Of a stretch of DNA of 64,000 nt, positions 45,689 to 59,271 are shown piece by piece. The number at the start of each line of letters is the position of its first letter. The stretch's first letter is position 1. Source of the DNA: Candidatus Omnitrophota bacterium. Its GTDB lineage: Bacteria; Omnitrophota; Gorgyraeia; Duberdicusellales; 4484-171. Location of the stretch: the NCBI GenBank assembly GCA_020343495.1, contig CP070797.1:1510-65509 (forward strand), read 5' to 3'. Position numbers and translations under genes: made by a program. Under the pieces are notes generated by a model. That model made no database searches. It saw nothing but the letters and a program-made list of their open reading frames with translations, and was not told the origin of the DNA.

Positions 45689-47905
45689 TTAAAGACGGGA
45701 CGTCAATATCTGATAAAACTTGTCATTCTTATTACAAGACAACACTTTCTCACGGTTTTCTTTATCCATAAAAAACTTTGAAATTTCAGCCATAAACTGT
45801 AAATACGGTTTTGACGACTTTACCGGCGATACTGTAAGAATAAATATTTTGGATAACTGTTTATCCAGAGAATCAAAATCTAAGCCTTCCTTCTTTAACC
45901 CGATAGCGCAAATAGGCTTATTAACAGCTTCTGATTTAGCGTGAGGCAAAGCAATACCGTCCTGCATACCGGTAGACATGGTTGTTTCCCGGTCAAGTAA
46001 GTCTGCCAAAGCCTGCTTTCGTTTTGAAGGAATAAGCTGGCCTGCTCTGATTAAAATATCTAAGAGTTCCTCAATGATTGCCTGTTTGTTCGTCCCTTTA
46101 AGGACAACCTCAACCGCTAACGGCGAAACTACCTGCGTGATTTTTAGTTTTTCAACAGGCACGCCGTTTCCGGCATCAAAAATCTTTCTGCCAATTTTTT
46201 CTTTGTCAGTGAGGGTCTGTAAATGTTTCATTGTGCGTTCAAGGTCAGCTAACACTTCATAAAAAAGCGTGCGGACAAACGCTTCGTCTCTTTCTAAACA
46301 ATCAAACACTAACTTTTCCGGAGTAAATTTCATGGCGATGAACGTCTGTTCCTTACGAATCTGATAAAGGTTTTGTTCCATATCCAGGAGGTGAACAAAA
46401 AACCCTTCATTCTCAAAATCGGCAATTACGTTGCCTAAAATAAGCTTTGCCGTTTCAGGGTTAGGCATGCCGTAGACAATGTGTTTATACTCTTTCCTAA
46501 CGGGTTTCTGGCGCCTTAGGCCGGACTCTTCATCAAGGGCCTTAGCCAACAGAGGAGGGGCAAAAATCGTGGTTACAAACGTCATAATAATAGCGATAGC
46601 AAACGCGTCATGGCCTAAAAACCCCATGGAAAGGCCTATCCCTGCAATAATTAAAGCTACTTCTCCCCGGGGAATCATTCCCAGCCCCACTCTTAAAGCG
46701 CCTCTTAAATTAAAATTCAAGAAAAGAGCCGGCACACTACAGCCCAAAACCTTTCCTAAGATGGCAACGACTACATAAATCATCCCAAAGATAACAATCT
46801 TTCCAGACGCTATTTCACCAAAGTTAACCAGCATTCCCATCACACAGAAGAAAATAGGGACAAAGAATCTATAAAGAATATTTAAGTTCTCCTGAATAAC
46901 AAAAGAAAGGTCGGTCTTAGACAAAGAAAGCCCCATAACGTAGGCACCGATAATTAATGCAAGCCCGGACCTCTCAAACACTCCTGCCAACAACATCGCC
47001 AGGGCAAAACTCATAACAGCTATGGTTGCTTTATCTCTGAACTTTTTCAAGAAGTCGCTTAAGTAGCGAGAAGAGTATAACCCCAAGGCAGTCAGCCCAA
47101 GCCATATACCAATGGCTTTAAGAGAAATTAACCCCACCTGTTTCCAAGCAACGTGGCCGCTTTTAATAATGCCGATAACTACGGCAAGAAGCACGATACC
47201 GAGCACATCATCTATAACCGCGCCCGATAAAATAGTTACTCCTTCGGCAGAATCCATCTTCTTTCTTTCAGAAAGAATTCTTGCGCTAATACCTACGGAG
47301 GTAGCAGTGGATATCACTCCCAGAAATAAGGGAATAGGATGGGTAAACCCGTAATGCAGGCCAAAGACGTATTTTGAAAAAACAACTGCTGCTAAATCGC
47401 CTAAAATGAAACTGACAACCACTCCTCCAATACCTACTACTGAACCTGCCAGGGAAAAACTTAAGAAAGTCTCTATATTGGTTTCCAGGCCAACAAGAAA
47501 AAGAAGCACGATAGAGGCTATTGTAGCAAAACTATACAGCTCGCTGGATACAGGAAACCCTTCTTTAAAGGGGAACAACCCTGCCTCCAAGCCCGGTAAA
47601 GAAATCCCGCCTAACAAATAAGGCCCTATGATAATCCCGGCAACCAACTCTCCTAAAACCGCCGGTAAATGAATCTTCTCAAAAATCCTGCCACCCAGGC
47701 GCGCGGCAAAAAGGATTACGCTCAACTGAAAAACCAGAATCGCCATTTTGCCGACCAAATCTGACTCAAATCCCCCTGCCTGAGCGTAAAGGTTAAAAAA
47801 GGGAGTAATTAAGAGAAAAGCTAATAGTATAAAGGCAAATTTCTGCCGGGGCGCTTTCTTAATCAAGGAGAAAAAATCTCTTATTTTGACTGCATATTTC
47901 TTCAT
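45689..47905 (-). CDS. CPA2 (Kef-type) cation:proton antiporter fused to a PTS EIIA(Ntr/Fru)-type domain
   Basis: About 12 TM with LPAVLGELVAGIIIGP. C-terminal EIIA_2-like region: STGMQDGIALPHAKSEAVNKPICAIGL. Confidence 0.8.
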   Translation of the reverse strand: MKKYAVKIRDFFSLIKKAPRQKFAFILLAFLLITPFFNLYAQAGGFESDLVGKMAILVFQLSVILFAARLGGRIFEKIHLPAVLGELVAGIIIGPYLLGGISLPGLEAGLFPFKEGFPVSSELYSFATIASIVLLFLVGLETNIETFLSFSLAGSVVGIGGVVVSFILGDLAAVVFSKYVFGLHYGFTHPIPLFLGVISTATSVGISARILSERKKMDSAEGVTILSGAVIDDVLGIVLLAVVIGIIKSGHVAWKQVGLISLKAIGIWLGLTALGLYSSRYLSDFLKKFRDKATIAVMSFALAMLLAGVFERSGLALIIGAYVMGLSLSKTDLSFVIQENLNILYRFFVPIFFCVMGMLVNFGEIASGKIVIFGMIYVVVAILGKVLGCSVPALFLNFNLRGALRVGLGMIPRGEVALIIAGIGLSMGFLGHDAFAIAIIMTFVTTIFAPPLLAKALDEESGLRRQKPVRKEYKHIVYGMPNPETAKLILGNVIADFENEGFFVHLLDMEQNLYQIRKEQTFIAMKFTPEKLVFDCLERDEAFVRTLFYEVLADLERTMKHLQTLTDKEKIGRKIFDAGNGVPVEKLKITQVVSPLAVEVVLKGTNKQAIIEELLDILIRAGQLIPSKRKQALADLLDRETTMSTGMQDGIALPHAKSEAVNKPICAIGLKKEGLDFDSLDKQLSKIFILTVSPVKSSKPYLQFMAEISKFFMDKENREKVLSCNKNDKFYQILTSRL

Positions 47906-47937
47906 ATAGACCTATTTTAACCTTCTTTTTTATTCCG

Positions 47938-48408
47938 TCAATATTGTTGTTCTGCCTCTAAAAACTTAGCTAAATCCTGGTAAACGAATTTCTCCTGTTG
48001 AGGCGTAAACCCAACTAGAGGGTGTTTATCTTCCACTAACCTGACCGCATCAGCAATACTGCTGCCACTATCTGCCAAGACAGCTACTGCTACTAACGGC
48101 GCGCGGCCGCAGCTGTTCTGACAATGCAGAAGAACCTTCTTATTATTCCTTAATAAGGGCCTAACAAATTCCATTATTTGCCTAAGTTGCGAAAAAGTAG
48201 GCGCGTAACAGTCATCTATATCAACATGCAGAAACGCTATACTGTTATCCTTAATAAGCCGGGCGTCATCGCAATCTTCCGACCTTAAATCTACGATGGC
48301 GGCAATTGCCTCCCTTTTTATATAACCAATGTCTCCAGATAAAAAGGCCCCGCTTACAGCAATCTGATCAGTAATCCAGCTGATACTAACCATCTTTCTT
48401 CTATTCAA
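47938..48408 (-). CDS. Dual-specificity/Cys-based protein phosphatase
   Basis: CX5R loop VLLHCQNSCGRAP. Confidence 0.75.
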   Translation of the reverse strand: MNRRKMVSISWITDQIAVSGAFLSGDIGYIKREAIAAIVDLRSEDCDDARLIKDNSIAFLHVDIDDCYAPTFSQLRQIMEFVRPLLRNNKKVLLHCQNSCGRAPLVAVAVLADSGSSIADAVRLVEDKHPLVGFTPQQEKFVYQDLAKFLEAEQQY

Positions 48409-48809
48409 TACCTATTGAAATAATGAAATCTGATTACTCTTCCTTCGTCAAAAGCTTTTCTTATCTTTTTCTTAATATAAACTTTTATTAAATCCCTGAA
48501 AAAAGGTATAAGTAAAAACAACCCCACTAAATCCGTGAGTACTCCCGGCGTAATAAGAAGCAGGCCCCCGCAAAGAATCAATAAGGCGTCAAACAAAGCA
48601 TCTTGCGGCATAACGCCTGCTGCCAAATCCTGGTTTATCCTGTTAAAAACTTTCAATCCTTGAGACCTTGCTAACATAGCGCCGCCGGCACCGGTTATAA
48701 CTACAATAGCTATAGTAAGGGAAGCGCCGATAACCTGGCCTATTTTTATAAGTAAGGCAAGCTCAAGAAGAGGAACCGTTGTAAACAATAAAATTAGATA
48801 ACCTAACAT
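48405..48809 (-). CDS. fxsA: FxsA family membrane protein
   Basis: LLELALLIKIGQVIG...GAGGAMLARSQG...PGVLTDLVGLFLLIP. Confidence 0.8.
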   Translation of the reverse strand: MLGYLILLFTTVPLLELALLIKIGQVIGASLTIAIVVITGAGGAMLARSQGLKVFNRINQDLAAGVMPQDALFDALLILCGGLLLITPGVLTDLVGLFLLIPFFRDLIKVYIKKKIRKAFDEGRVIRFHYFNRY

Positions 48810-48863
48810 ATTAATAAACTCCTTCTCTTTTTTCTCCTTCTTAAAACAGTTTGGTTGGCAGAT

Positions 48864-49571
48864 TTACTTTTTTATCTTTCTAACCTCGTATGCCAGCACT
48901 ATAGCTTGGGCAATCTCTTTCATGGAAACACGCCTATCCATACTTGACTTCCTAATTAAGGTATAGGCTTCTTCTTCGCTAATACCCTGTTCTTTCATCA
49001 ATATCCCTTTTGCTCTCTCAACTTTTTTACGCGCCGCCAGTTCCTCCTGAATTACCCTGGTTTTAACCATAAGCCTGGTGTTTTCTATTGCCACGGCAGC
49101 CTGGTTTGCTACCGCGCTTAACAAATCTATATCGCTCTTTGTAAATTTGTAAGGGGCGACGGTGTAACAATTAATCACTCCATATACGTTTTTTTTTATC
49201 ATCATAGGCGCACTAAGCATTGAAACTAACCCTTCCTTCCTTGCTAGCATCTTCTCTTTATACTTCTTATCCTTCAGGACGTCGCAAATTACTATGGGCT
49301 TTTTTTCTTTAGCTACCAGGCCGACAATTCCCTCGCCTAACTTTATCGTTCTTTCCTTAAGGTAATCTTTGCTCATTGCCTGGGTTGCTCTAATTTTTAA
49401 TTCTTTACTTTTCTCGTCTATAAGCCAGAGAGAACATATCTTTGCTCTCATAACATTCGCAGTTAAAGTAACTATGAGTTTGAGAACATCCTCAATATAC
49501 AAATCAGAAGTTATCGCATTGCTTATTTTATTTAATGCCGTAATATACTCTTTATAAGAGAATTTTTTCAT
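48864..49571 (-). CDS. GAF + ANTAR RNA-binding antiterminator-type regulator
   Basis: GAF: ICSLWLIDEKSKELKIRA...GEGIVG. ANTAR: ELAARKKVERAKGILMKEQGISEEEAYTLIRKSSMDRRVSMKEIAQAIV. Confidence 0.85.
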   Translation of the reverse strand: MKKFSYKEYITALNKISNAITSDLYIEDVLKLIVTLTANVMRAKICSLWLIDEKSKELKIRATQAMSKDYLKERTIKLGEGIVGLVAKEKKPIVICDVLKDKKYKEKMLARKEGLVSMLSAPMMIKKNVYGVINCYTVAPYKFTKSDIDLLSAVANQAAVAIENTRLMVKTRVIQEELAARKKVERAKGILMKEQGISEEEAYTLIRKSSMDRRVSMKEIAQAIVLAYEVRKIKK

Positions 49572-49631
49572 AATTATTTTTAGGAAATTAGATTTTAAGA
49601 AACAAAAAGAGAAATATCAGTTGCCTTGCGT

Positions 49632-51008
49632 CTATAAAACTGGCAGATATGCCGTTATCTCATAATTATGAACTTGTTTTCTATATTCGTCCCACTCAAT
49701 TTTTTTACTCATAATAAGGTTGCTAAAAATATGCTCCCCTAAAGTTTCTCTAAGAAACTTGCTGTTTTCAGAAATCTCAATTGCTTCAATCAGACTTCCC
49801 GGAAGGCAGTCAATACCGAAATCTTTCATTTCTTGGGGAGTAAGGTTATAAACGTCCCGTTCCAAAGGTTGCCCCAGAGAATAATTTTGGTTTATTCCTT
49901 TTAGACCGGCAGCAAGCATACAAGCAAAGGCCAAATAGGGGTTACACGCCGGGTCCGGGGAACGGAACTCAACCCTGGTTGCTTTCTCTTTGCCGGGTTT
50001 ATACATCGGGACCCTTACTAAAGCGCTTCTGTTACGGCTTCCCCAGCATATATAAACAGGTGCTTCGTAACCGGGAACAAGCCGTTTATAAGAATTTACC
50101 CATTGGTTACATACCAGGGTTATTTCTCTGGCATGCCGCAGTATCCCTGCTATGTAAGCCTTGCCTTTATCAGACAAATGATACTTATCATTCTCATCAA
50201 AAAAGATGTTACTCTTGCCGTCAAACAAAGACTGATGAGTGTGCATTCCCGACCCATTTACCCCGAACACCGGCTTTGGCATAAATGTTGCGTAAAGCCC
50301 GTGTTTTTGCGCGACTTCTTTCACAACCATTCTATACAACATAACAATATCTGCCATTGTTATTGCATCGGTATAGCGTAAATCAATCTCATGCTGAGAA
50401 GGCGCAACTTCATGATGAGAATACTCTACCTGAATCCCCATCTGTTCTAAAGTCAAAATAATTTCACGCCTTACTTCGTTTCCCGCATCTAACGTAGTAA
50501 TATCAAAATAACCGCCTTCATCTAAAATCTGGGTGGATTTTTCGTCTTTAAAGATAAAAAATTCCAGCTCCGGCCCGATATAAAAAGTAAGCCCTTCCTC
50601 TTTTGCTTTACCTAATACTTTCTTTAAGATATACCGTGAATCGCCCTGGTAAGGAGTCCTGTCCGGATTCAGGATATCACAAAGCATTCCTGCAACTGCC
50701 TTTTCTTTCTCGTGATACGGCAAAATAATAAATGTAGTGGGGTCGGGCATAGCAATCATATCTGACTCATCAATCCGGGCGAACCCTTTGATAGAAGAGC
50801 CGTCAAACCCCATGCCGTCTTCCAGGGCGTCTTCTAATTCTTGACGCGTAATGGAGAACCCTTTCATTTGTCCGGTAATGTCGGCAAACCACAACCTTAC
50901 AAATTTAACGTCTTTTTCTTTAGCGATTTTTAAAACATCTTTTCTCGTCAAATTTTTATCGTTCATACCCTCTCCTTTCTTTCCTAAAAAGTTACTAATA
51001 AACTTCAT
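49632..51008 (-). CDS. glnA: Glutamine synthetase type I
   Basis: FMPKPVFGVNGSGMHTHQSL and NRSALVRVP. The likely true start is ATG at 50964-50966 (MNDKNLTRKDV...), preceded by AAAGGAGAGGGT. The track start at 51008 adds 14 aa. Confidence 0.9.
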   Translation of the reverse strand: MKFISNFLGKKGEGMNDKNLTRKDVLKIAKEKDVKFVRLWFADITGQMKGFSITRQELEDALEDGMGFDGSSIKGFARIDESDMIAMPDPTTFIILPYHEKEKAVAGMLCDILNPDRTPYQGDSRYILKKVLGKAKEEGLTFYIGPELEFFIFKDEKSTQILDEGGYFDITTLDAGNEVRREIILTLEQMGIQVEYSHHEVAPSQHEIDLRYTDAITMADIVMLYRMVVKEVAQKHGLYATFMPKPVFGVNGSGMHTHQSLFDGKSNIFFDENDKYHLSDKGKAYIAGILRHAREITLVCNQWVNSYKRLVPGYEAPVYICWGSRNRSALVRVPMYKPGKEKATRVEFRSPDPACNPYLAFACMLAAGLKGINQNYSLGQPLERDVYNLTPQEMKDFGIDCLPGSLIEAIEISENSKFLRETLGEHIFSNLIMSKKIEWDEYRKQVHNYEITAYLPVL

Positions 51009-51169
51009 ATTAAATATTTTATATAACAGTTTCTATTCTAACAGGGTTTTTTTGTTAAATCAACAGGATAAAACCATACTTAAATATGCTTATTTTAACA
51101 AAAAAAATAAAGGCAGGCTAGCGACTATCTTATCTTGGAAATATATTACTTAATAATTTTTATATCTTA

Positions 51170-52498
51170 TCAAACTACTCCCTGCTCCAGCATGGCATCA
51201 GCAACCTTCACAAACCCGCCGATATTGGCGCCGTTGACGTAATTAACGAAGCTTTCTTGCCTGCCGTACTTAACACAGCTATCGTGTATTCTAACCATAA
51301 TTTGTTGAAGCTTCTCGTCTACTTCTTCGCTGCTCCAGGATAACCTCTGGCTGTTCTGGCTCATTTCTAAACCGCTTACAGAAACCCCGCCGGCATTAGC
51401 AGCTTTGCCCGGGCCGTAAAGAACCTGTTGTTTCAAAAATACGTTTACTGCCTCGGGAGTGCTTGGCATATTTGCTCCTTCAGAAACGCAAATGCATCCG
51501 CCTTTAACAAGGGTTTGGGCGTCTTTAGCGTCAATCTCATTCTGGGTAGCTGAAGGAAAAGCAACATTACACTCTATAGACCAGGGCCTCCTTCCTTCAA
51601 AATATTTACAGTTATACTTCTGGGCATATTCTTTGATTCTGCCGCGCCTTAGATTTTTCAACTCTTTAACAAACTCTAACTTCTGCTCAGAAATGCCTTG
51701 GGAGTCGTAAATAAATCCTCCTGAATCAGACAACGTAACACACTTGCCTCCTAACTGATTTACCTTTTCCACTGTATACTGGGCAACATTTCCCGAACCG
51801 GACACTGCACATACTTTACCGTTAAGGGATTCTCCCCTGGTTTTTAACATTTCCTGGGCAAAATATACACAGCCGTAGCCGGTTGCTTGCGGCCGAATCA
51901 AACTGCCGCCCCAGTTAAGCCCTTTACCGGTAAGAACGCCGCTAAATTCATTGCGCAACCGTTTATACTGCCCAAACAAATACCCGATTTCACGGCTGCC
52001 TACGCCGATATCGCCGGCGGGAACGTCTGTGTCCGGGCCGATGTGCCGCTGTAATTCCGTCATAAAACTCTGGCAGAATTTCATCACTTCGTTATCGGAC
52101 TTTCCCTTAGGGTCAAAATTAGCCCCTCCCTTGCCTCCTCCCATGGGAAGCGTAGTTAAACTATTCTTAAAGACCTGCTCAAACGCCAGGAACTTTAAAA
52201 TACTTAAATTCACACTGGGATGAAACCGCAAGCCCCCTTTATACGGCCCGATAGCACTGTTCATTTCAATACGGTAACCTCTGTTTACCTGAATTTGGCC
52301 TTTATCGTCTATCCAGGGGACACGAAACATAATCACTCTCTCCGGCTCCACCAGGCGCTCTAATATGTTAGCCTCCTGATACTTAGGGTTTGCTTTGATA
52401 AACGGTATTACTGACGATACCACTTCATTAACTGCCTGATGGAACTCAACTTCCCCGGGATTTCTTTCAACGACCTTTTTCATAAATTGTTGCGGCAT
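51170..52498 (-). CDS. gdhA: NADP-type glutamate dehydrogenase
   Basis: [43 protein letters not shown]. Confidence 0.9.
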
Positions 52499-52517
52499 AC
52501 TACCCTCCTTGTTTTAC

Positions 52518-53918
52518 TTAACTACTAACTTTACTACTAACGAGAAACTCCTTTATAGCCTGCGCCGCATTTTTTGCCTGCGCAATAGCACTTATTACTG
52601 TTGCTGACCCGCTGACAATATCGCCGCCGGCAAAAATATCAGGTATAGACGTCTGACAATTCTCATTAACTTTTATATACCCCTTAGAAGTTAACTTTAA
52701 CCCTTCAATCGTAGAAATTAATAACGGATTAACCCCGCTGCCTACGGCAACAATTACTGTATCCAAATCAATAGTGAACTGCGAACCTTTTATGGGAACC
52801 GGTGAGCGCCTGCCGGAAGAGTCAGGGTCTCCCAGCATATTTTTAATACAGCGGACCGCTCTTACATTTCCTCCTCCATCGGAAAGTATTTCTTTGGGAG
52901 AAACAAGCAAGTTAAACTTAACCCCCTCCTGTTGAGCGTTTTCAATTTCTTCCTCTCTCGCCGGCATTTCATCCCGCGTCCGGCGGTAAATAATGGAAAC
53001 TTGCTCTGCTCCTAATCTTAAAGCGCAGCGGGCACAATCAAAAGAAACATTGCCCGCTCCAAACACGCCGATTTTTCTGCCGATTTTTACCGGCGTATCA
53101 TATTCAGGGAACCTGTAACTTTTCATCAAATTCACCCGTGTAAGAAACTCATTCGCTGAATACACTCCGTTTAAGTTCTCGCCGGGTATGTTTAAAAACC
53201 GCGGAAGGCCGGCGCCTACACCGATAAAAAAAGCAGCGAACCCTTCCTGCCTTAAATCCTGTATAGTTTTGGTCCTTCCCGCTACAAAATCAGTAATAAC
53301 TTTTACTCCCAAACTCTTTATATAACCAACTTCTTTCTCAACAATAATTTTAGGAAGCCTGAATTCAGGGATTCCGTAAACAAGCACCCCGCCTGCCTTG
53401 TGCAACGCCTCAAACAAATATACGTCAAACCCTTCTTTAGCCAAATCAGCCGCGCAGCTAAGCCCTCCCGGGCCAGACCCGATAACCGCAACTTTTACTG
53501 CTTTTAAGTCTTTGCTGCCTGCCTTAGCTTTAGTCGTTTGTCCAGAGCCTTTCTGCAATTCCCAATCGGCAACGTATCTTTCTAAATAACCAATCTTAAT
53601 CGCCTTACCTTTTTTATCTAAAATGCAAGAGACCTGACACTGGTCTTCCTGAGGGCACACTCTGCCGCATACGCCGGGAAGATTATTGGTCTCTTTAATC
53701 TTTTTTATAGCACCGCAATAATCTTTATCTGTAATTAACCGTATGAACTCTTTAATATCAATTCCTGCCGGGCACCCTTCTCTACAAGGAGGGTTCTTGC
53801 ACTGCAAGCATCTGCGAGCTTCAATTAACGCCTCTTCTTGGGTAAACCCCAGAGAAACTTCTCTAAAGGTGCGTTTTCTCTCTTCCAACGGTATTTTTGT
53901 TATTTTACCTTCCCTCAT
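52518..53918 (-). CDS. GltD/NfnB/SudA-type NADPH-dependent FAD/Fe-S oxidoreductase (glutamate synthase small-subunit-like)
   Basis: CLQCKNPPCREGCPAGIDI, VAVIGSGPGGLSCAADLAKEGFDVYLFE, IFAGGDIVSG. Confidence 0.8.
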   Translation of the reverse strand: MREGKITKIPLEERKRTFREVSLGFTQEEALIEARRCLQCKNPPCREGCPAGIDIKEFIRLITDKDYCGAIKKIKETNNLPGVCGRVCPQEDQCQVSCILDKKGKAIKIGYLERYVADWELQKGSGQTTKAKAGSKDLKAVKVAVIGSGPGGLSCAADLAKEGFDVYLFEALHKAGGVLVYGIPEFRLPKIIVEKEVGYIKSLGVKVITDFVAGRTKTIQDLRQEGFAAFFIGVGAGLPRFLNIPGENLNGVYSANEFLTRVNLMKSYRFPEYDTPVKIGRKIGVFGAGNVSFDCARCALRLGAEQVSIIYRRTRDEMPAREEEIENAQQEGVKFNLLVSPKEILSDGGGNVRAVRCIKNMLGDPDSSGRRSPVPIKGSQFTIDLDTVIVAVGSGVNPLLISTIEGLKLTSKGYIKVNENCQTSIPDIFAGGDIVSGSATVISAIAQAKNAAQAIKEFLVSSKVSS

Positions 53919-53940
53919 TTACATCCTCACAAACTTTTAA

Positions 53941-54813
53941 TCAGCCGGTATTATCTAAGCGGCACTTATGCCCTTTATCTTTAAATTTCCCTAAAGAACG
54001 CTTCTCTTCATTGATAAAGCGGTCCTGCCTCTGCATTAACTCATCAAAATCAACTAAATGCCCGTCAAACTCCGGGCCGTCCACACAACAAAACTTAACT
54101 TTGCCTGCCTCAATCAAGCGGCAGCCTCCGCACATTCCTGTTGCGTCCAGCATTATAGCGTTTAAACATACCGTTGTTTTTATATTGTAAGGCTTGGTTA
54201 TCTGCGAAACTACTTTCATCATAGGAAGCGGGCCCACACAGTAAACCAACCCGAAATCTTTCTCTTTTCGTAAGACTCTTTCTAAAATATCACTTACAAA
54301 CCCTTTTTCTCCTAAACTGCCGTCATCAGTGCTAACATATAATTTATCGCAATACTTGCCTATCTCATCTTTTAGAATCAGCAACTCTTTAGTCTTTGCT
54401 CCCAAAATAGAATAAATCAGGCAGCCTCCCTCTTTCAATGACTTCACTAACGGTAAAGCTTCGGCAATGCCGACGCCGCCGGCTACGACAAAAACTTTAC
54501 CGTAATTCTTTACTAGAGTGGGATGGCCCAGCGGCCCTACCAAAGAATATAAAGAGTCCCCTTGCTTCAACGTCCCTAGGAGTTTGGTGGAATACCCTAT
54601 TTCCTGAAAAATAAGGGTAATCGTCCCCTTATTCTGATTTTTATCTACAATAGTTAAAGGAATTCTCTCACCGGTTTGCTTTACCATTAAGACGATGAAC
54701 TGGCCGGGTTGGGCTTTTGCGGCAATTACCGCTGCCTCAACGTCAATTCTAACAATCCTGGTATCTGCTGTTTCAGCTAAAACTACCTTATTTACTATCT
54801 TCATTGCTCTCAC
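53941..54813 (-). CDS. PyrK/NfnA/SudB-type FAD/NAD-binding [2Fe-2S] subunit
   Basis: ERIPLTIV, VVAGGVGIAEALP, C-terminal GMCGGCRL...KFCCVDGPEF. The likely start is ATG at 54802-54804 (MKIVNKV). The track uses GTG at 54813. Confidence 0.75.
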   Translation of the reverse strand: MRAMKIVNKVVLAETADTRIVRIDVEAAVIAAKAQPGQFIVLMVKQTGERIPLTIVDKNQNKGTITLIFQEIGYSTKLLGTLKQGDSLYSLVGPLGHPTLVKNYGKVFVVAGGVGIAEALPLVKSLKEGGCLIYSILGAKTKELLILKDEIGKYCDKLYVSTDDGSLGEKGFVSDILERVLRKEKDFGLVYCVGPLPMMKVVSQITKPYNIKTTVCLNAIMLDATGMCGGCRLIEAGKVKFCCVDGPEFDGHLVDFDELMQRQDRFINEEKRSLGKFKDKGHKCRLDNTG

Positions 54814-54815
54814 TC

Positions 54816-54864
54816 AAAATAAAAAAGCGCCCTTCCTATGTTCATCCATTTATAGAAAGGACGC
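54816..54864 (-). terminator. Strong intrinsic-terminator structure ending ~12 nt before the nfnA-like start codon (leader attenuator)
   Basis: Sense: GCGTCCTTTCTAT (54852-54864 on plus), 12-nt loop, ATAGGAAGGGCGC (54827-54839 on plus). That is 13 bp including 2 G-U pairs. It is followed by TTTTTTATTTTG, then GAGTGAGAGCA and ATG. Confidence 0.7.
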
Positions 54865-54878
54865 CCTTGTCCATTCCA

Positions 54879-54907
54879 AATATATCATAGCCAAATAGAA
54901 TTGTCAA
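54879..54907 (-). promoter_or_regulatory. Predicted sigma70-type promoter upstream of the leader terminator
   Basis: Sense: TTGACA (54902-54907), 17-nt spacer, TGaTATATT (-10 at 54879-54884). A transcript would start only ~10 nt before the terminator stem. Confidence 0.6.
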
Positions 54908-54942
54908 GAACCTCAGCCTTTCCTTTCTCTATTACTGCTCAT

Positions 54943-55470
54943 CTAATACTCTATTCCCCTGCGGGCGCAAATCCCTTTATCAAAAGGGTGTTTTACTTTT
55001 TTAATAAGGCTTACGTAATCTGCCAATTTAATTAAATCCGAAGGAGCGCGTCTGCCGGTCAAAATAATTTCTATTGATGCGCCTTTCTTTATTATTCGTT
55101 TCAAAACGGCCTTGGGGCAGGCCCTTAGCCCTACCGCATTCAGTATTTCATCTAAAACTATAAGGTCAAACTTCTTTTGATTAATATAACCTTCAATTTT
55201 CAGTAAAGCCTTCCGGATTGACTCTTTTAGCTTTTTTGCATCGGCCTTTTCCCCTTTTTTTAAAAACATAGGATGAATCTGGCCCCTAAAACGTTCAATC
55301 ACAACAGATGTTTTTACTCTTTTAACAAACTCTATTTCTCCACTGACCCTTTTTACATCTTTTAAAAATTGCCCAATATAAGCTTTTTTATTAAACCCAG
55401 CCAGGCGCAACGCCAGGCCTAAGGCAGCGGTAGTTTTACCTTTGCCGTCTCCTATATAAAAATGCACCAT
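54943..55470 (-). CDS. cobO: Cob(I)yrinic acid a,c-diamide / cob(I)alamin adenosyltransferase (CobO/BtuR type)
   Basis: VHFYIGDGKGKTTAALGLALR...LIVLDEI. Confidence 0.85.
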   Translation of the reverse strand: MVHFYIGDGKGKTTAALGLALRLAGFNKKAYIGQFLKDVKRVSGEIEFVKRVKTSVVIERFRGQIHPMFLKKGEKADAKKLKESIRKALLKIEGYINQKKFDLIVLDEILNAVGLRACPKAVLKRIIKKGASIEIILTGRRAPSDLIKLADYVSLIKKVKHPFDKGICARRGIEY

Positions 55471-55919
55471 AACTTAACCAGCCCCATACTTCCTAAAGTT
55501 ACGAAAATTGCTGCTAACAAAACACCCAGAGATATTGCTACGATTGCTTTCTTCATGCGAAAATTAAACAAAGTTGCCGCCACGCTGCCGGTCCAAGCAC
55601 CTGTTCCGGGAAAAGGAATGGAAACGAAAAAAACCAGCCCCCAAAAACCGTAAGTCTCTACTATTTTAGATTTTTTCTCTACTCTCCTAAACCACCACTT
55701 AAATATTTTTTCTATCGGCCTTAGATGCTCCAGCCTAGTTACCACCCACCTGAAAAAAAGAAGCAGCAAGGGAATGGGCAGGAGATTACCTGCCAGGGCA
55801 AAAACAAAAACTTTACCTAAACTTAATCCTTTAGCAATACCTATAGGAATAGCTCCTCTCAATTCAACAACGGGAGAAGCTGAAACCAGAAAAATTAATA
55901 ATTCGTTATTTATATCCAT
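55452..55919 (-). CDS. Small membrane protein (COG2426-type putative small multidrug export protein)
   Basis: Four TM; ASPVVELRGAIPIG... pattern. Confidence 0.5.
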   Translation of the reverse strand: MDINNELLIFLVSASPVVELRGAIPIGIAKGLSLGKVFVFALAGNLLPIPLLLLFFRWVVTRLEHLRPIEKIFKWWFRRVEKKSKIVETYGFWGLVFFVSIPFPGTGAWTGSVAATLFNFRMKKAIVAISLGVLLAAIFVTLGSMGLVKLWCIFI

Positions 55920-56544
55920 ATTCTCCTAACAAAGGAACGAACATACATGCACAAACAACCTCTTTATCAATTTTACTCACAGAGATTTTCTTAACCACGG
56001 TTAACTCCTGCTGCAGGGGCCCGCCAAGAGGGATAACCATCCGCCCCTCTACTTTAAGCTGTTCTATCCAGCAAGGAGAAACAGCCGGAGAAGCTGCCGT
56101 AACAATTATTCTGTCATAAGGAGCGTTTTGCGGCCAACCTAACGTGCTGTCGCCTGCCTTTACCTCTACCTTACATTTCAGGGAATCCAGCAGCAGTTTT
56201 GCTTTCTGCGCCAAAGCAGGGACTCTTTCAATGCTGTACACGCTTGCTCCCAGATAAGAAAGAATTGCTGCCTGATACCCGCTTCCCGTGCCAACTTCTA
56301 ATACTTTTTGAGACTCCCCTACTTCTAAATGCTGCGTCATCAACGCCACAATGTAAGGCTGCGAAATAGTCTGATTTTCTCCGATAGGAAGGGGGTAATC
56401 CTCATAGGCAAATTTTCTATTTTGCTCGCTGACAAAAAGATGGCGCTCAACAGCCCTGAAAGCCTCCAATATTTTTGGCTCCTCAATACCGCGCTGTAAA
56501 ATCTGTTCAGAAACCATTCTCTCTCTAAGGGCGTCAAAATCCAC
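55906..56544 (-). CDS. pcm: Protein-L-isoaspartate O-methyltransferase
   Basis: PLPIGENQTISQPYIVALM, VLEVGTGSGYQAAIL. Confidence 0.9.
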   Translation of the reverse strand: MDFDALRERMVSEQILQRGIEEPKILEAFRAVERHLFVSEQNRKFAYEDYPLPIGENQTISQPYIVALMTQHLEVGESQKVLEVGTGSGYQAAILSYLGASVYSIERVPALAQKAKLLLDSLKCKVEVKAGDSTLGWPQNAPYDRIIVTAASPAVSPCWIEQLKVEGRMVIPLGGPLQQELTVVKKISVSKIDKEVVCACMFVPLLGEYGYK

Positions 56545-56558
56545 AATATAACCTTAAC

Positions 56559-57272
56559 TTAAGGATTCAACCTCTCTTCTCTGTCCAACTCTAAAATAAA
56601 CCTTACAAACCTTATTGTATCTACAAAAGGGCTTATTTTACTTCTCTGGTTTTTAAAATAAATACTCTTTACGGGAATACTCTTTATAAAAAACCCGCGT
56701 CGGGCGGCTTTAATGAGAATCTCTGACTCTATTTCAAACTTATTTGTCCGTATTCTTATCCCTTCCAACACATCTCTTTTAATCAGGCGAAACCCGCACT
56801 GAGTATCAGGAATCTTTTGCTTTGCTATTCTGGAAATAAACCAAGACATAGCTTTATTAGTAATGACCCTCAAGGCAGGCATACCCCCGGGATTACCCAT
56901 TCTATCTCCCACGACAAAAGACGCCCCTTTTTCTGCTTCATTCAAAAAACTGTCCAGGTCAGAAGGACAGTGCTGGCCGTCAGCGTCCATGGTAATAATA
57001 TAATCAAAACTCTCGTTCTGCAAAAGATAAGCTACTGCTTTCTTTAAAGCCATGCCCTTGCCGAGGTTCGCTCTATTCTTAATTACTATATGCGCCTCTC
57101 TTTTTACTATATCAAAAGTATTGTCGCTGGAGCCGTCATCAATAACAAGAGTGGATAATCCCCTTGTTTTAAGCTCACTAAGAAGCGCACTTAAGGACCT
57201 CTGTGAAGCAGAAAGGCCGCCAGCGGTGTCATATCCTTCATTATATGCGGGAATTACTACCCAGACTTTCAT
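56559..57272 (-). CDS. Family 2 glycosyltransferase (polyprenyl-phosphate sugar transferase-like)
   Basis: VVIPAYNE...VIDDGSSD...TMDADGQH. Confidence 0.8.
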   Translation of the reverse strand: MKVWVVIPAYNEGYDTAGGLSASQRSLSALLSELKTRGLSTLVIDDGSSDNTFDIVKREAHIVIKNRANLGKGMALKKAVAYLLQNESFDYIITMDADGQHCPSDLDSFLNEAEKGASFVVGDRMGNPGGMPALRVITNKAMSWFISRIAKQKIPDTQCGFRLIKRDVLEGIRIRTNKFEIESEILIKAARRGFFIKSIPVKSIYFKNQRSKISPFVDTIRFVRFILELDREERLNP

Positions 57273-58134
57273 AATCTTTCACCCAATATTTCTCAAACAT
57301 ATACCATTGTTCAGGATACATCCTTAAATATTTCTCTAATATCAAAATATAATTCTTTATTACGGCTGCCTGAGCCTCTTCAGTTAAAAGAGATGAAGCG
57401 TCAGTTGCCTCCCAGATAGGTTTCTCAAAAATCAAACGGTAAAACTTCTTATTCTGGCGGACAAAAAAAGAAGGCACGATAGCAGCTCCTGTTCTCATCG
57501 CAAAGTAGAACGCTCCCCGGGGAATGTTTGCCCTTCTGGAAAACATCTCAGCTTCTATGCCTGCTCCGGCGGTAAAATCCCTGTCTCCAAGGAAAGCAAT
57601 CATTGCTCCCTTTTTTAGAACGGAAAAACACTGCTTAACGCTAACGCCGGTAGGAATAACACCGATACCAACCCTGCGGCGGTGACGGTTAAAAAACTCA
57701 TTTGTCCGCTTGTCTTTATGAGGTAAAGCAACCGCATAAATTGGGTATCCTAAGAGCGCGACCACTGCTCCGCCTAACTCATAATTGCCTAAATGAGCGG
57801 TGAGAGAAACAACGCCTTTCTTCTTAGAAAGAGATTCTTGGAGAAAATTTATCCCTTCCACTTTAACGTACTTCTTAATAAAATTTTGATCTAACTTTGA
57901 ATACCTGAAAAAATCAACCAAATAATAAGAAAAATTAACGAACACCTGATGCGTACTCCTGGTGCACCTTTTTTCATCTTCCACAATAGGAGAAAGATTA
58001 TATTTAACGGCGTCTCTGTCTTTCTTGGAAAGATAGAAATGAACCGTAGCCAAAATTTTTGCAAGAAAATAGCACCATTGCCTAGGAAATATTAAACAAA
58101 GTATTTTGCCTAAAATAAAAAGATAATACATCAT
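57241..58134 (-). CDS. LpxL/HtrB-family lysophospholipid/lipid A acyltransferase
   Basis: N-terminal TM. VSLTAHLGNYELGG (HX4-like acyltransferase block). PEQWYMF. Confidence 0.7.
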   Translation of the reverse strand: MMYYLFILGKILCLIFPRQWCYFLAKILATVHFYLSKKDRDAVKYNLSPIVEDEKRCTRSTHQVFVNFSYYLVDFFRYSKLDQNFIKKYVKVEGINFLQESLSKKKGVVSLTAHLGNYELGGAVVALLGYPIYAVALPHKDKRTNEFFNRHRRRVGIGVIPTGVSVKQCFSVLKKGAMIAFLGDRDFTAGAGIEAEMFSRRANIPRGAFYFAMRTGAAIVPSFFVRQNKKFYRLIFEKPIWEATDASSLLTEEAQAAVIKNYILILEKYLRMYPEQWYMFEKYWVKDYESLGSNSRI

Positions 58135-58149
58135 AAAAAAGACTATAGT

Positions 58150-59271
58150 CTAGCCGCTAATTATCTCTCCGGAAATCAAGTCTACTATCCGCAAAGAAGA
58201 ATCAATAAATGAATTCTCTCTTGCTTTTTCTTTAAGATAAAACATCCTCTTCCTATCGCGCATGAGCCCTTTTACCGCCTCTCCTATTAAAGAAGTATTA
58301 TCAACTTTAACAACCGCTCCCCGGTAGAGAAGGTAATTTACGTTTCTCTCCTCCTGCCCGGGAATAGGATTGACAATAATGATGCATAAGCTTTTAGCTA
58401 ACGCTTCCGATACGGTTATGCCTCCTGCTTTGGTAATAATTATATCGGAGAAATCCATGATTTTATGGACAAAATCAATGTAGCCAAAACAGAAAATTGG
58501 TTTCTTGAAATCTTTTTTGTTCTTCTCAAACCAATTATAAAGAGTCTTATTCTTACCGCACACCACGACAATCTGGAAGTTACTATCTAAAGAATCGAGC
58601 TGCTGGGCTATCTTCTTAATAGGGCCTATGCCTAAGCCGCCGCCCATAATCAATACCGAATCCCGCTTGCTTGCGAAGTTTAAATTATCACATACTTCCT
58701 GCCTTGAGTAAGCTTTTAAAAATTCTACCGATATGGGGATACCTAAAACTTTTATTTTTTCTTCTCCCACGCCTTCTCTAACCAGAGTTTCTTTCGCTTC
58801 TTTACATGCAACAACGTATTTATCTATGCAGGGATGAATCCAAAAACGGTGAGGATAATAATCAGTAACTACTGCTACGAGGGGGATTTTTAACCCGAAC
58901 TTTTGTTTGAAATCAGCGACCAGGCCGCAGGGAAACGCCTGGGTAGTTACAAAACAGGTGGGCTTAAAATCATTTATAAGCCGCGATAACTTCTTAAAAG
59001 TTATTCTGTTTACAAACCTGCGGCAAGGAGTAAGAAATTTTACCACTCTCCTGCGGTCGTAAAGGCCTCCCCACAGGTCAGGGATATACTTTATTAGAAG
59101 CGTATATAAAAAATCAACAACTTTTTCCCAATAAGGATAAAAATGCCCAAAACCGTTTATACTTAAAACTTCCGCCTCGGGCTCCTTATACCTGAAAGCT
59201 TCTTTTATATTCTCGGCAGCTTTGCTGTGGCCGCCAAAATCAGAAATATAAAAAATAAGTATTCTTTTCAC
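58150..59271 (-). CDS. MGDG-synthase/GT28-type diacylglycerol glycosyltransferase
   Basis: ILIFYISDFGGHSKAAENI...DIIITKAGGITVSEALA. Confidence 0.7.
   Translation of the reverse strand: MKRILIFYISDFGGHSKAAENIKEAFRYKEPEAEVLSINGFGHFYPYWEKVVDFLYTLLIKYIPDLWGGLYDRRRVVKFLTPCRRFVNRITFKKLSRLINDFKPTCFVTTQAFPCGLVADFKQKFGLKIPLVAVVTDYYPHRFWIHPCIDKYVVACKEAKETLVREGVGEEKIKVLGIPISVEFLKAYSRQEVCDNLNFASKRDSVLIMGGGLGIGPIKKIAQQLDSLDSNFQIVVVCGKNKTLYNWFEKNKKDFKKPIFCFGYIDFVHKIMDFSDIIITKAGGITVSEALAKSLCIIIVNPIPGQEERNVNYLLYRGAVVKVDNTSLIGEAVKGLMRDRKRMFYLKEKARENSFIDSSLRIVDLISGEIISG

What the first reader, a model, noticed from the sequence alone, without database searches (positions are those of the whole stretch)
54816..54907. 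Promoter-proximal intrinsic terminator directly in front of the nfnA-like/gltD-like/gdhA/glnA string, which ends with a GAF-ANTAR antiterminator gene
**Seen in the sequence**
- A near-consensus promoter: TTGACA, 17-nt spacer, TGaTATATT.
- Within ~10 nt comes a 13-bp GC-rich hairpin plus U6AU4.
- Only ~12 nt later is the ATG of the first gene, leaving no room for another promoter.
- So every transcript entering this block, from this promoter or by read-through from cobO, must pass the terminator.
- The 5' arm of the terminator can instead fold as GGAC-AAGGGC-GUCC (54859-54872), a small hairpin whose hexaloop has A at position 1 and G at position 4.

**Established knowledge**
- ANTAR regulators (EutV, NasR, AmiR) bind paired hexaloop hairpins with A1/G4 that compete with a terminator.
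- A GAF-ANTAR protein is encoded 5 kb downstream in the same gene string (48864-49571).

**Caveat**
- I found only one convincing hexaloop hairpin, not the canonical pair.
Basis: partly seen in the sequence, partly recalled or inferred. Interest (0 to 1): 0.6.

Follow-up and report, generated by a model that had tools for sequence, protein, structure and literature searches.

The report
One-hairpin ANTAR nitrogen-operon leader switch
The nitrogen-assimilation operon of this uncultured Omnitrophota bacterium starts with a small conserved RNA hairpin that competes with a transcription stop signal; the GAF-ANTAR protein encoded downstream most likely reads it, and it uses one recognition hairpin where published ANTAR switches have two.

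Summary
A near-consensus promoter is followed within 6 nt by the hairpin GGAC-AAGGGC-GUCC. Its 3' half forms the base of a 13-bp terminator with a U6AU4 tail, and the nfnA-like start codon lies 11 nt further on.

The layout is conserved. A covariance model finds it in 72 of 101 related genomes. Both alternative helices covary, and loop position 4 is G in 36 of 36 strong copies.

Copies precede nfnA-like, gltB-like, gdhA, purL, purF, purS, pyrG, carB and nagB-like genes, and often the GAF-ANTAR gene itself. The motif lies within 10 kb of that gene, on the same strand, in 26 genomes.

The hairpin is nearly identical to the published P2 of the Klebsiella nasF leader. The ANTAR domain keeps EutV's RNA-contact residues.

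In 31 of 36 copies a strong promoter ends 5-22 nt before the hairpin, which leaves no room for P1. Orthologous GAF-ANTAR/gltB loci in Thermodesulfobacteriota carry the canonical P1+P2 with the same P2.

Verdict: an ANTAR-type antiterminator of a P2-only form, a new variant of a known kind. This scan has noted similar one-hairpin leaders on other DNA.

The parts
54879..54907 (-). Sigma-70-type promoter: -35 TTGACA (54907-54902), 17-nt spacer, extended -10 TGaTATATT (54887-54879). The predicted transcription start is about 54875-54872.
   Evidence: 11 of 12 matches plus TG, the best site in 47500-58500; 31 of 36 orthologous or paralogous leaders have a promoter matching at least 10 of 12 at the same relative place, against 3% of shuffles.
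54859..54872 (-). Antiterminator hairpin, P2-like: stem GGAC/GUCC (54872-54869 with 54862-54859) and hexaloop AAGGGC (54868-54863). Loop position 1 is A and position 4 is G.
   Evidence: The stem is 100% paired across 14 aligned leaders, and 2 of 4 pairs covary. G at loop position 4 is found in 36 of 36 copies. The hairpin alone is worth -5.2 kcal/mol, against -22.7 for the terminator fold of the same 62 nt.
54827..54864 (-). Intrinsic terminator stem-loop: 5' arm 54864-54852, 12-nt loop 54851-54840, 3' arm 54839-54827. The six G/C-rich pairs at its base use loop positions 5-6 and the 3' stem of the hairpin.
   Evidence: -24.7 kcal/mol, z = -3.7; 98% of cells paired, and 7 of 12 pairs show compensatory changes.
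54816..54826 (-). U-tract U6AU4 of the terminator.
53941..54804 (-). First regulated gene: an NfnA/PyrK-like FAD/[2Fe-2S] subunit starting at ATG 54804.
   Evidence: Pfam DHODB_Fe-S_bind, NAD_binding_1. (orthologues start MKI...).
52518..53918 (-). GltD/NfnB-like subunit, 22 nt after the previous gene.
   Evidence: Fer4_20, Pyr_redox_2.
51170..52498 (-). gdhA, glutamate dehydrogenase.
49632..50965 (-). glnA, type I glutamine synthetase. It is preceded by a 204-nt spacer with its own promoter-like site (51063-51035) and no copy of the motif.
48864..49571 (-). GAF-ANTAR protein (235 aa), the proposed reader of the hairpin.
   Evidence: R181, K182, E185, K188, E199, Y203 and M211 align with EutV R142, K143, E146, K149, E160, Y164 and M172.

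Best explanation
This is a transcription attenuator of the ANTAR type in a minimal, one-hairpin form.

**Mechanism.** Transcription starts at the consensus promoter. The first 12-14 nt of the RNA can fold into GGAC-AAGGGC-GUCC. Left alone, this weak hairpin loses to the much stronger terminator that uses its 3' half, and RNA polymerase stops 11 nt before the nfnA-like start codon. When the GAF-ANTAR protein is in its RNA-binding state, it clamps the hexaloop hairpin, with G at position 4 stacking on the conserved aromatic Y203. This withholds the six G/C-rich pairs at the base of the terminator. Only a weak A/U stem remains, 6 nt away from the U-tract, so polymerase reads through.

**Regulon.** Read-through expresses the nfnA-like, gltD-like and gdhA genes, and probably glnA and the regulator itself. 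The same switch controls purL-purF-purM-purD-purE in this genome. In relatives it controls gltB-like, pyrG, carB, purS and nagB-like genes. Together these form a nitrogen and glutamine-amide regulon.

**What is shown and what is inferred.**
- Shown: the structures, their conservation and covariation, the regulon, the association with the GAF-ANTAR gene, and the absence of room for P1.
- Inferred: binding by this protein, the direction of the response, and the GAF ligand. The ligand is probably a nitrogen-status metabolite such as 2-oxoglutarate or glutamine, because the GAF domain is closest in sequence to those of PtsP/EI-Ntr.
For: **Structure.** The terminator folds at -24.7 kcal/mol, z = -3.7. 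In 14 aligned leaders the hairpin is 100% paired with 2 covarying pairs. The terminator is 98% paired with 7 of 12 covarying pairs. Alignment column 20 covaries with both of its partners. Six of the 36 hairpins have G.U at the outer pair and two have a wobble at another pair (8 in all), which fits RNA rather than a DNA palindrome.

**Loop.** Position 1 is A in 31 copies and G in 5. Position 4 is G in 36 of 36. This matches the published ANTAR loop consensus. The K. oxytoca nasF P2 is GGAU-AAAGGC-GUCC (Ramesh 2012 Fig. S1).

**Association with the regulator.**
- The motif is found in 72 of 101 relatives and ANTAR in 81 of 101.
- Of 40 genomes with a strict motif hit, 38 have ANTAR. The two exceptions are 61% and 87% complete.
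- The motif lies within 10 kb and on the same strand in 26 genomes, and within 1 kb in 18, often directly upstream of the regulator gene.
- All 26 hits in loci fetched by the regulator are on its strand.

**Regulon.** It is coherent for nitrogen metabolism.

**Protein.** EutV's RNA-contact residues are conserved (family alignment; residue roles from PMC8934654).

**One hairpin only.**
- In 31 of 36 copies a promoter matching at least 10 of 12 ends 5-22 nt before the hairpin.
- No consistent P1-like hairpin was found: 8 loose hits against 4.5 expected, at scattered positions and several of them overlapping promoter elements.
- Orthologous Thermodesulfobacteriota leaders, with a regulator 61-64% identical and the same gltB-like target, carry a clear P1 8-10 nt upstream of the same P2 in 6 of 6 cases.
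- Walshe et al. 2022 showed that an ANTAR dimer contacts one hexaloop at a time.
Against: - There are no binding, transcript or start-site data.
- For EutV and NasR, P1 is needed for efficient antitermination and for full affinity. NasR binds P2 alone at about 12 uM, against about 1 uM for the pair. A P2-only switch therefore contradicts what the studied systems need.
- Five motif-positive genomes showed no ANTAR gene, though all are incomplete MAGs and one hit is weak.
- Loop position 1 is G in 5 of 36 copies.
- The regulon mixes enzymes normally induced under opposite nitrogen states (GDH, GS, amidotransferases), so the logic and the signal are unclear.
Confidence: 0.78

Rival explanations
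1. A canonical dual-hairpin ANTAR target whose P1 was missed. Transcripts would really start upstream, for example by read-through from cobO, and a cryptic P1 would lie in the region read here as a promoter.
For: No terminator separates cobO from the leader. Two intra-operonic purL leaders, L032 and L061, lack an adjacent promoter and show weak P1-like hexaloop hairpins 15 and 7 nt upstream.
Against: TTGACA-16/17-TAnnnT is conserved as promoter hexamers, not as a helix, in 31 of 36 copies whatever gene lies upstream. The loose P1-like hits are near chance level, at inconsistent distances and A/U-rich. The same scan finds P1 in 6 of 6 Thermodesulfobacteriota controls at 8-10 nt.
Confidence: 0.06
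2. An attenuator read by something other than the GAF-ANTAR protein, such as another RNA-binding protein or a small ligand, or an unregulated partial terminator that merely damps a strong promoter.
For: Binding is untested. A few motif-positive MAGs show no ANTAR gene. There is no Rfam family to compare with.
Against: The most conserved positions, GAC plus loop positions 1-3, lie outside the terminator stem, so they are not needed for termination. A 14-nt hairpin is too small for a ligand pocket. The loop signature and the nasF P2 identity point specifically to ANTAR. There is tight linkage to, and frequent placement in front of, the ANTAR gene.
Confidence: 0.1
3. The inverted repeat GGAC-N6-GTCC is a DNA operator at +1 for a repressor, and the terminator is incidental.
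For: It is a perfect palindrome in the window and sits at the predicted start site. Watson-Crick covariation is equally expected for a DNA palindrome.
Against: Eight of 36 copies keep pairing only through G.U wobble. The asymmetric loop is conserved. Copies occur inside operons and in tandem without promoters, each with its own overlapping terminator. Column 20 also covaries with the terminator 3' arm.
Confidence: 0.03
4. The terminator of the upstream cobO unit combined with a 5'-terminal stabiliser hairpin, with no switching function.
For: The terminator follows cobO by about 80 nt. 5'-terminal hairpins are known mRNA stabilisers (general knowledge).
Against: The terminator lies downstream of the promoter and 11 nt from the next start codon. 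The layout is conserved with the downstream genes while the upstream neighbours differ: FAA hydrolase, the ANTAR gene, purB and others.
Confidence: 0.03

Closest known systems
NasR / nasF leader of Klebsiella oxytoca (NIT-ANTAR antitermination)
   Same: The P2 hairpin GGAU-AAAGGC-GUCC (Ramesh 2012 Fig. S1) matches the window's GGAC-AAGGGC-GUCC at 12 of 14 positions and one Omnitrophota copy (L067) at 14 of 14. In both, the 3' half overlaps an intrinsic terminator. Both use a one-component regulator with a ligand-sensing domain fused to ANTAR, and both serve nitrogen assimilation.
   Different: nasF has P1 plus P2, and NasR binds P2 alone about 12-fold more weakly (PMC7496416). Here there is no P1. 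The sensor is GAF rather than NIT. The targets are GDH, Nfn-like and purine genes rather than nitrate assimilation.
EutV / eut leaders of Enterococcus faecalis and Listeria (REC-ANTAR, dual hexaloop)
   Same: The hexaloop A1/G4 signature, and a P2 that competes with the terminator. The RNA-contact residues R142, K143, K149, E160, Y164 and M172 are conserved in the window's protein. The crystal structure shows the dimer gripping one hexaloop (PMC8934654).
   Different: EutV needs P1 as a recruitment hairpin with fixed spacing for antitermination. It is activated by phosphorylation. It serves ethanolamine use.
Predicted ANTAR nitrogen regulons of Ramesh et al. 2012 (Desulfotomaculum, Desulforudis, Carboxydothermus, Pelobacter)
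   Same: ANTAR-target leaders precede glutamate synthase, glutamine synthetase and the ANTAR gene itself, with several attenuators per regulon.
   Different: Those were found with, and described as, dual-hairpin motifs, mostly alongside REC-ANTAR regulators. They do not cover Omnitrophota, and purine, pyrimidine and amidotransferase genes are not among the target categories the paper's text lists.
GAF-ANTAR/gltB-like leaders in Thermodesulfobacteriota MAGs
   Same: The regulator is orthologous (61-64% identity), the target gene family is the same, and P2 (GAC-AAAGGC-GUC) and the terminator base are the same.
   Different: They carry a clear P1 with a 7-bp stem and an RANGNN hexaloop 8-10 nt upstream, a short 7-bp terminator, and no U-rich tract after P2.

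Membership tests
ANTAR-target antiterminator RNA (Ramesh et al. 2012) | Hairpin with a six-base loop carrying A at position 1 and G at position 4 | tested here: met
   The window's loop is AAGGGC. Across 36 copies position 1 is A in 31 and G in 5, and position 4 is G in 36. This matches the published loop consensus AAHGDV and the nasF P2.
ANTAR-target antiterminator RNA (Ramesh et al. 2012) | The 3' half of that hairpin (P2) overlaps the 5' arm of an intrinsic terminator | tested here: met
   Six nt are shared (54864-54859). Both helices are supported by covariation, and column 20 pairs with both partners.
ANTAR-target antiterminator RNA (Ramesh et al. 2012) | Two hexaloop hairpins, P1 and P2, at constrained spacing | tested here: not met
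   The -10 element ends 6 nt before the hairpin in the window and 5-22 nt before it in 31 of 36 copies. No consistent P1 was found, while the positive controls scored 6 of 6.
ANTAR-target antiterminator RNA (Ramesh et al. 2012) | An ANTAR-domain protein encoded in the genome, typically nearby | tested here: met
   The single GAF-ANTAR gene lies 5.2 kb downstream in the same gene string. Co-occurrence and co-localisation hold across relatives.
ANTAR-target antiterminator RNA (Ramesh et al. 2012) | Signal-dependent binding of the ANTAR protein to the RNA, with read-through of the terminator | not testable with these tools
   This needs EMSA or in vitro transcription.
ANTAR domain (Pfam PF03861) RNA-binding proteins | ANTAR three-helix domain with the RNA-contact residues defined in EutV | tested here: met
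   Pfam E = 1.6e-20. The alignment to 6WSH shows R, K, K, E, Y and M conserved. They are invariant in the family alignment, apart from Y/F at position 203.
Rfam families (any) | A match at or above the gathering score | tested here: not met
   No family reaches threshold. A canonical dual leader also finds nothing, so no usable ANTAR-target model turned up in Rfam and this result is uninformative.

The most novel reading that the evidence does not exclude
A single 12-14-nt hexaloop hairpin at the very 5' end of a transcript is sufficient for ANTAR-mediated antitermination in vivo. On this reading the P1 'recruitment' hairpin held to be essential in EutV, NasR and AmiR is dispensable. This lineage would compensate in three ways: by placing P2 at +1, by following it with a conserved U-rich tract (UUUCU) that may pause polymerase and lengthen the terminator, and by stacking two or three such modules in tandem where more gain is needed.
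Probability: 0.55. Interest if true: 0.65.

Novelty: new variant of a known kind. Interest (0 to 1): 0.55.

Why it matters
ANTAR antitermination is described in the literature, including a 2025 review, as requiring a dual-hairpin RNA. Searches for targets have been built on that model. A conserved P2-only attenuator would show three things.
- The minimal binding unit proposed from the EutV crystal structure, one hexaloop, is also a functional regulatory unit in nature.
- It supplies a natural pair of orthologous systems, one with P1 (Thermodesulfobacteriota) and one without (Omnitrophota), for testing what P1 contributes.
- Dual-hairpin searches miss part of the ANTAR regulon space.

It also provides the first concrete regulatory circuit proposed for nitrogen metabolism in Omnitrophota, an uncultured phylum. 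It assigns a target to a GAF-ANTAR protein, an architecture noted as uncharacterised in 2012. The predicted regulon links ammonium assimilation to glutamine-amide-consuming purine and pyrimidine synthesis.

Tried and rejected
- **Rfam scan of 16 kb around the site at E up to 10.** It gave only terminator-like noise. A canonical dual leader also gave nothing, so Rfam is uninformative here.
- **glnA leader (51169-50966).** There is no copy of the motif in the window or the genome, even at E up to 5. glnA instead has its own promoter-like site.
- **Generic genome-wide scan for any R..G.. hexaloop hairpin overlapping a terminator.** It found 29 hits with G at position 4, against 16-33 with other bases, which is background. 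Only the two model hits stand out.
- **Search for a hidden P1.** A strict scan found 1 of 36, inside a -35 element. A relaxed scan found 8 of 36 against 4.5 expected, at inconsistent positions.
- **Second hexaloop inside the terminator loop of the window (reading).** The candidates AAAUGG and GAUGAA lack the A1/G4 signature and are not conserved, because the terminator loops vary from 4 to 25 nt.
- **Fetching the EutV chain by its PDB label.** This failed. The phmmer alignment was used instead.
- **Structure prediction of the regulator.** Not run, because it would not decide ligand or binding.

Full report
**Observation.** The genes of this block lie on the minus strand. Reading that strand, the order of features is as follows.
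- cobO ends at 54943.
- A promoter follows: -35 TTGACA (54907-54902), a 17-nt spacer, and TGaTATATT (54887-54879). It matches 11 of 12 positions plus the TG, and is the best promoter-like site in 11 kb.
- Six nt later comes GGAC-AAGGGC-GUCC (54872-54859).
- A 13-bp stem (54864-54852 with 54839-54827, 12-nt loop) is followed by U6AU4 (54826-54816).
- The ATG of the NfnA/PyrK-like gene lies 11 nt further on, at 54804.

The leader folds at -24.7 kcal/mol, z = -3.7 against dinucleotide shuffles. On the 62-nt core, the small hairpin alone is worth -5.2 kcal/mol and the terminator fold -22.7.

Pfam confirms the gene string: NfnA-like, GltD/NfnB-like, gdhA, glnA and GAF-ANTAR (49571-48864). The GAF-ANTAR gene is the only ANTAR gene in the 1.5-Mb genome.

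**Conservation.**
- *First look.* I took the regions upstream of the orthologous nfnA-like gene in 30 related genomes. Thirteen (the window's own among them) show the same order: consensus promoter, hairpin, then an overlapping terminator with a U-run.
- *Covariation.* In an alignment of 14 such leaders, the 4-bp hairpin is paired in 100% of cells and two pairs covary (GC 7, AU 5, GU 2 at the outer pair). The terminator is 98% paired, with compensatory changes at 7 of 12 pairs. Column 20 covaries with its partner in the hairpin and with its partner in the terminator, which is the pattern expected of two mutually exclusive helices.
- *Positions outside the terminator.* The most conserved positions include GAC and the first loop bases. 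These lie outside the terminator stem, so they are not explained by termination alone.
- *Distribution.* A covariance model built from this alignment finds the element in 72 of 101 relatives, with up to 6 copies per genome. A sample of 150 genomes across the phylum gave strong hits only in the window's own class.
- *Loop and stem.* Across 36 strong copies, loop position 1 is A in 31 and G in 5, position 2 is A in 34, and position 4 is G in all 36. Eight stems pair only through G.U wobble. That favours an RNA helix over a DNA palindrome.

**What it controls.**
- *Own genome.* It has exactly two copies, even at E up to 5. One is the window's. The other lies between purB and purL-purF-purM-purD-purE.
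- *Relatives.* The genes directly downstream are nfnA-like (16 copies), a GltB-type glutamate-synthase domain protein (6), purL (4), pyrG (3), gdhA (2), a NagB-like deaminase (2), purF, purS and carB.
- *Reading.* This is a coherent set of ammonium-assimilating and glutamine-amide-consuming enzymes.
- *glnA.* The glnA leader in the window has no copy of the motif and instead has its own promoter-like site.

**Link to the GAF-ANTAR protein.**
- *Co-occurrence.* ANTAR is found in 81 of the same 101 genomes. Of 40 genomes with a strict motif hit, 38 have it. The two exceptions are MAGs that are 61% and 87% complete.
- *Co-localisation.* A motif lies within 10 kb of the ANTAR gene, on the same strand, in 26 genomes and within 1 kb in 18. 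In about eight genomes it sits directly upstream of the regulator gene, which implies autoregulation, and in about seven directly downstream.
- *Loci fetched by the regulator.* In 80 loci fetched with the regulator protein from named genomes, all 26 model hits are on the regulator's strand. Most of these genomes are Candidatus Omnitrophota MAGs, which identifies the lineage.
- *RNA side.* The hairpin is nearly the same as the experimentally studied P2 of the K. oxytoca nasF leader, GGAU-AAAGGC-GUCC (Ramesh et al. 2012, Fig. S1).
- *Protein side.* The residues that contact the hexaloop in the EutV-RNA crystal structure are Arg142, Lys143, Lys149, Glu160, Tyr164 (which stacks on G4) and Met172 (PMC8934654). 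They align with R181, K182, K188, E199, Y203 and M211. All are invariant in a 25-member family alignment, except for Y/F at position 203.
- *Sensor.* The GAF domain is closest in sequence to a Geobacter GAF protein and to the GAF domains of PtsP/EI-Ntr. That fits, but does not show, sensing of a nitrogen-status metabolite.

**One hairpin, not two.** Published ANTAR targets are dual hairpins (PMC3369931; PMC3369936; the 2025 review PMC12591593).
- *No room for P1.* In 31 of 36 copies a promoter matching at least 10 of 12 ends 5-22 nt (median 9) before the hairpin, against 3% of shuffled sequences. The hairpin therefore lies at about +1, and P1 cannot be in the transcript.
- *Scans for P1.* A strict scan for a P1-like hexaloop hairpin in the 60 nt upstream found one case, inside a -35 element. 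A relaxed scan found 8 of 36 against 4.5 expected, A/U-rich and at scattered distances, several of them overlapping promoter elements.
- *Positive control.* The relaxed scan recovers P1 in 6 of 6 leaders from Thermodesulfobacteriota/Syntrophaceae MAGs, always 8-10 nt upstream of P2.
- *The control loci.* They encode a GAF-ANTAR orthologue (61-64% identity), followed by a leader and then the same gltB-like gene. Their leader has a 7-bp P1 with an RANGNN hexaloop, then GAC-AAAGGC-GUC, then a 7-bp terminator.
- *Comparison.* The Omnitrophota element is thus the P2-terminator half of a canonical ANTAR leader, with the promoter moved up against P2.
- *Two further differences.* The P2-only leaders have a nearly invariant UUUCU right after the hairpin (5.1 U in 8 nt against 0.7) and longer, stronger terminators (mean -23 against about -16 kcal/mol). 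Some leaders also stack two or three complete hairpin-terminator modules in tandem.

**Mechanism proposed.** The nascent 5' hairpin is bound by the ligand-activated GAF-ANTAR dimer. This withholds GCGUCC from the terminator base. What remains is a weak UUUCUAU/AUAGGAA stem, 6 nt from the U-tract, so polymerase reads through. Without the protein the terminator wins by about 17 kcal/mol.

Walshe et al. showed that both ANTAR domains of a dimer grip a single hexaloop. They redefined the minimal binding motif accordingly, while keeping P1 as a kinetic recruitment site for EutV. NasR binds P2 alone about 12-fold more weakly than the pair. How this lineage manages without P1 is not known. The conserved U-rich tract may act as a hairpin-dependent pause that buys time, but this is my inference and is untested. 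The direction of the response and the ligand are also unknown.

**Rivals.**
- *A cryptic P1 supplied by read-through transcripts.* This is unlikely, given the conserved promoter hexamers and the varied upstream neighbours.
- *A DNA operator.* This is disfavoured by the wobble pairs, by the intra-operonic and tandem copies, and by the three-way covariation.
- *A plain cobO terminator.* This is excluded by the element's position downstream of the promoter and its conservation with the downstream genes.
- *Another reader protein.* This cannot be excluded without biochemistry.

**Novelty.** ANTAR control of nitrogen genes has been known since 2012, so the kind is known. I found no paper describing natural P2-only ANTAR attenuators, GAF-ANTAR targets, or ANTAR regulation in Omnitrophota. 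Earlier notes from this same scan report similar one-hairpin ANTAR leaders in Clostridia, Treponema and another Omnitrophota genome. Those notes are unpublished AI leads that agree with this reading, and they suggest the variant is widespread.

**Limits.** All genomes are MAGs and related to one another, so the counts are not independent. The promoter and +1 are predicted.

Noticed in passing
G000:C1:999668-999730 (minus strand; L032 7669-7731), outside the window: This is the genome's second copy of the switch (AGAC-AAAGGC-GUCU plus terminator). It lies between purB and purL-purF-purM-purD-purE with no adjacent promoter, so it would act on read-through from purB. A weak A/U-rich hexaloop hairpin (AGUUAA-GUUGAU-UUAGAU) lies 15 nt upstream, across the purB stop codon.
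   Followed up: partly
L063 6892-7113 (G005) and L140 about 10700-10886: Three complete hairpin-terminator modules stand in tandem in one leader. In G005 they precede a gltB-like gene, and in L140 they follow nfnA-gltD. Stacked single-hexaloop attenuators may provide gain in place of P1.
   Followed up: partly
L088, L098, L108, L110, L121, L099, L133 (Omnitrophota loci, about 40-60 nt upstream of the main motif): A second, related module reads aGC-RAWGAG-GCGUUC... and has its own short terminator. G at loop position 4 is kept, but the stem is only 2 bp plus a mismatch. It may be a degenerate or differently tuned variant.
   Followed up: no
36 Omnitrophota leaders compared with 6 Thermodesulfobacteriota leaders: UUUCU directly after the hairpin is nearly invariant in P2-only leaders and absent (A/G-rich) in dual-hairpin leaders. 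It lengthens the terminator and could also act as a hairpin-dependent pause.
   Followed up: partly
window 51035-51063 (minus strand): glnA has its own promoter-like site, TTGATT-17-TAGAAT with TG, in the 204-nt gdhA-glnA spacer. The likely glnA start is ATG 50965 after AAGGAGAGGG, not the ORF-track start at 51008.
   Followed up: partly
whole genome G000: No GltB-type glutamate-synthase domain gene was found in this genome by tblastn at E up to 1e-10, although relatives have one under the same switch. The NfnAB-like pair co-transcribed with gdhA may therefore supply NADPH to GDH rather than form a GOGAT.
   Followed up: partly
window 45689-47905 (minus strand): A Na+/H+-exchanger family membrane protein is fused to a PTS EIIA(Ntr)-type domain. 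It lies three genes downstream of the GAF-ANTAR gene, whose GAF domain is closest to those of PtsP/EI-Ntr. This hints at a nitrogen-PTS connection.
   Followed up: no
L123-L132: GAF-ANTAR orthologues at 61-64% identity, with the same P2 sequence, occur in Thermodesulfobacteriota/Syntrophaceae MAGs. This suggests horizontal transfer of the regulator-leader-gltB cassette between phyla. Several close relatives are labelled 'uncultured Planctomycetia' in TPA records but group with Omnitrophota MAGs by sequence.
   Followed up: no
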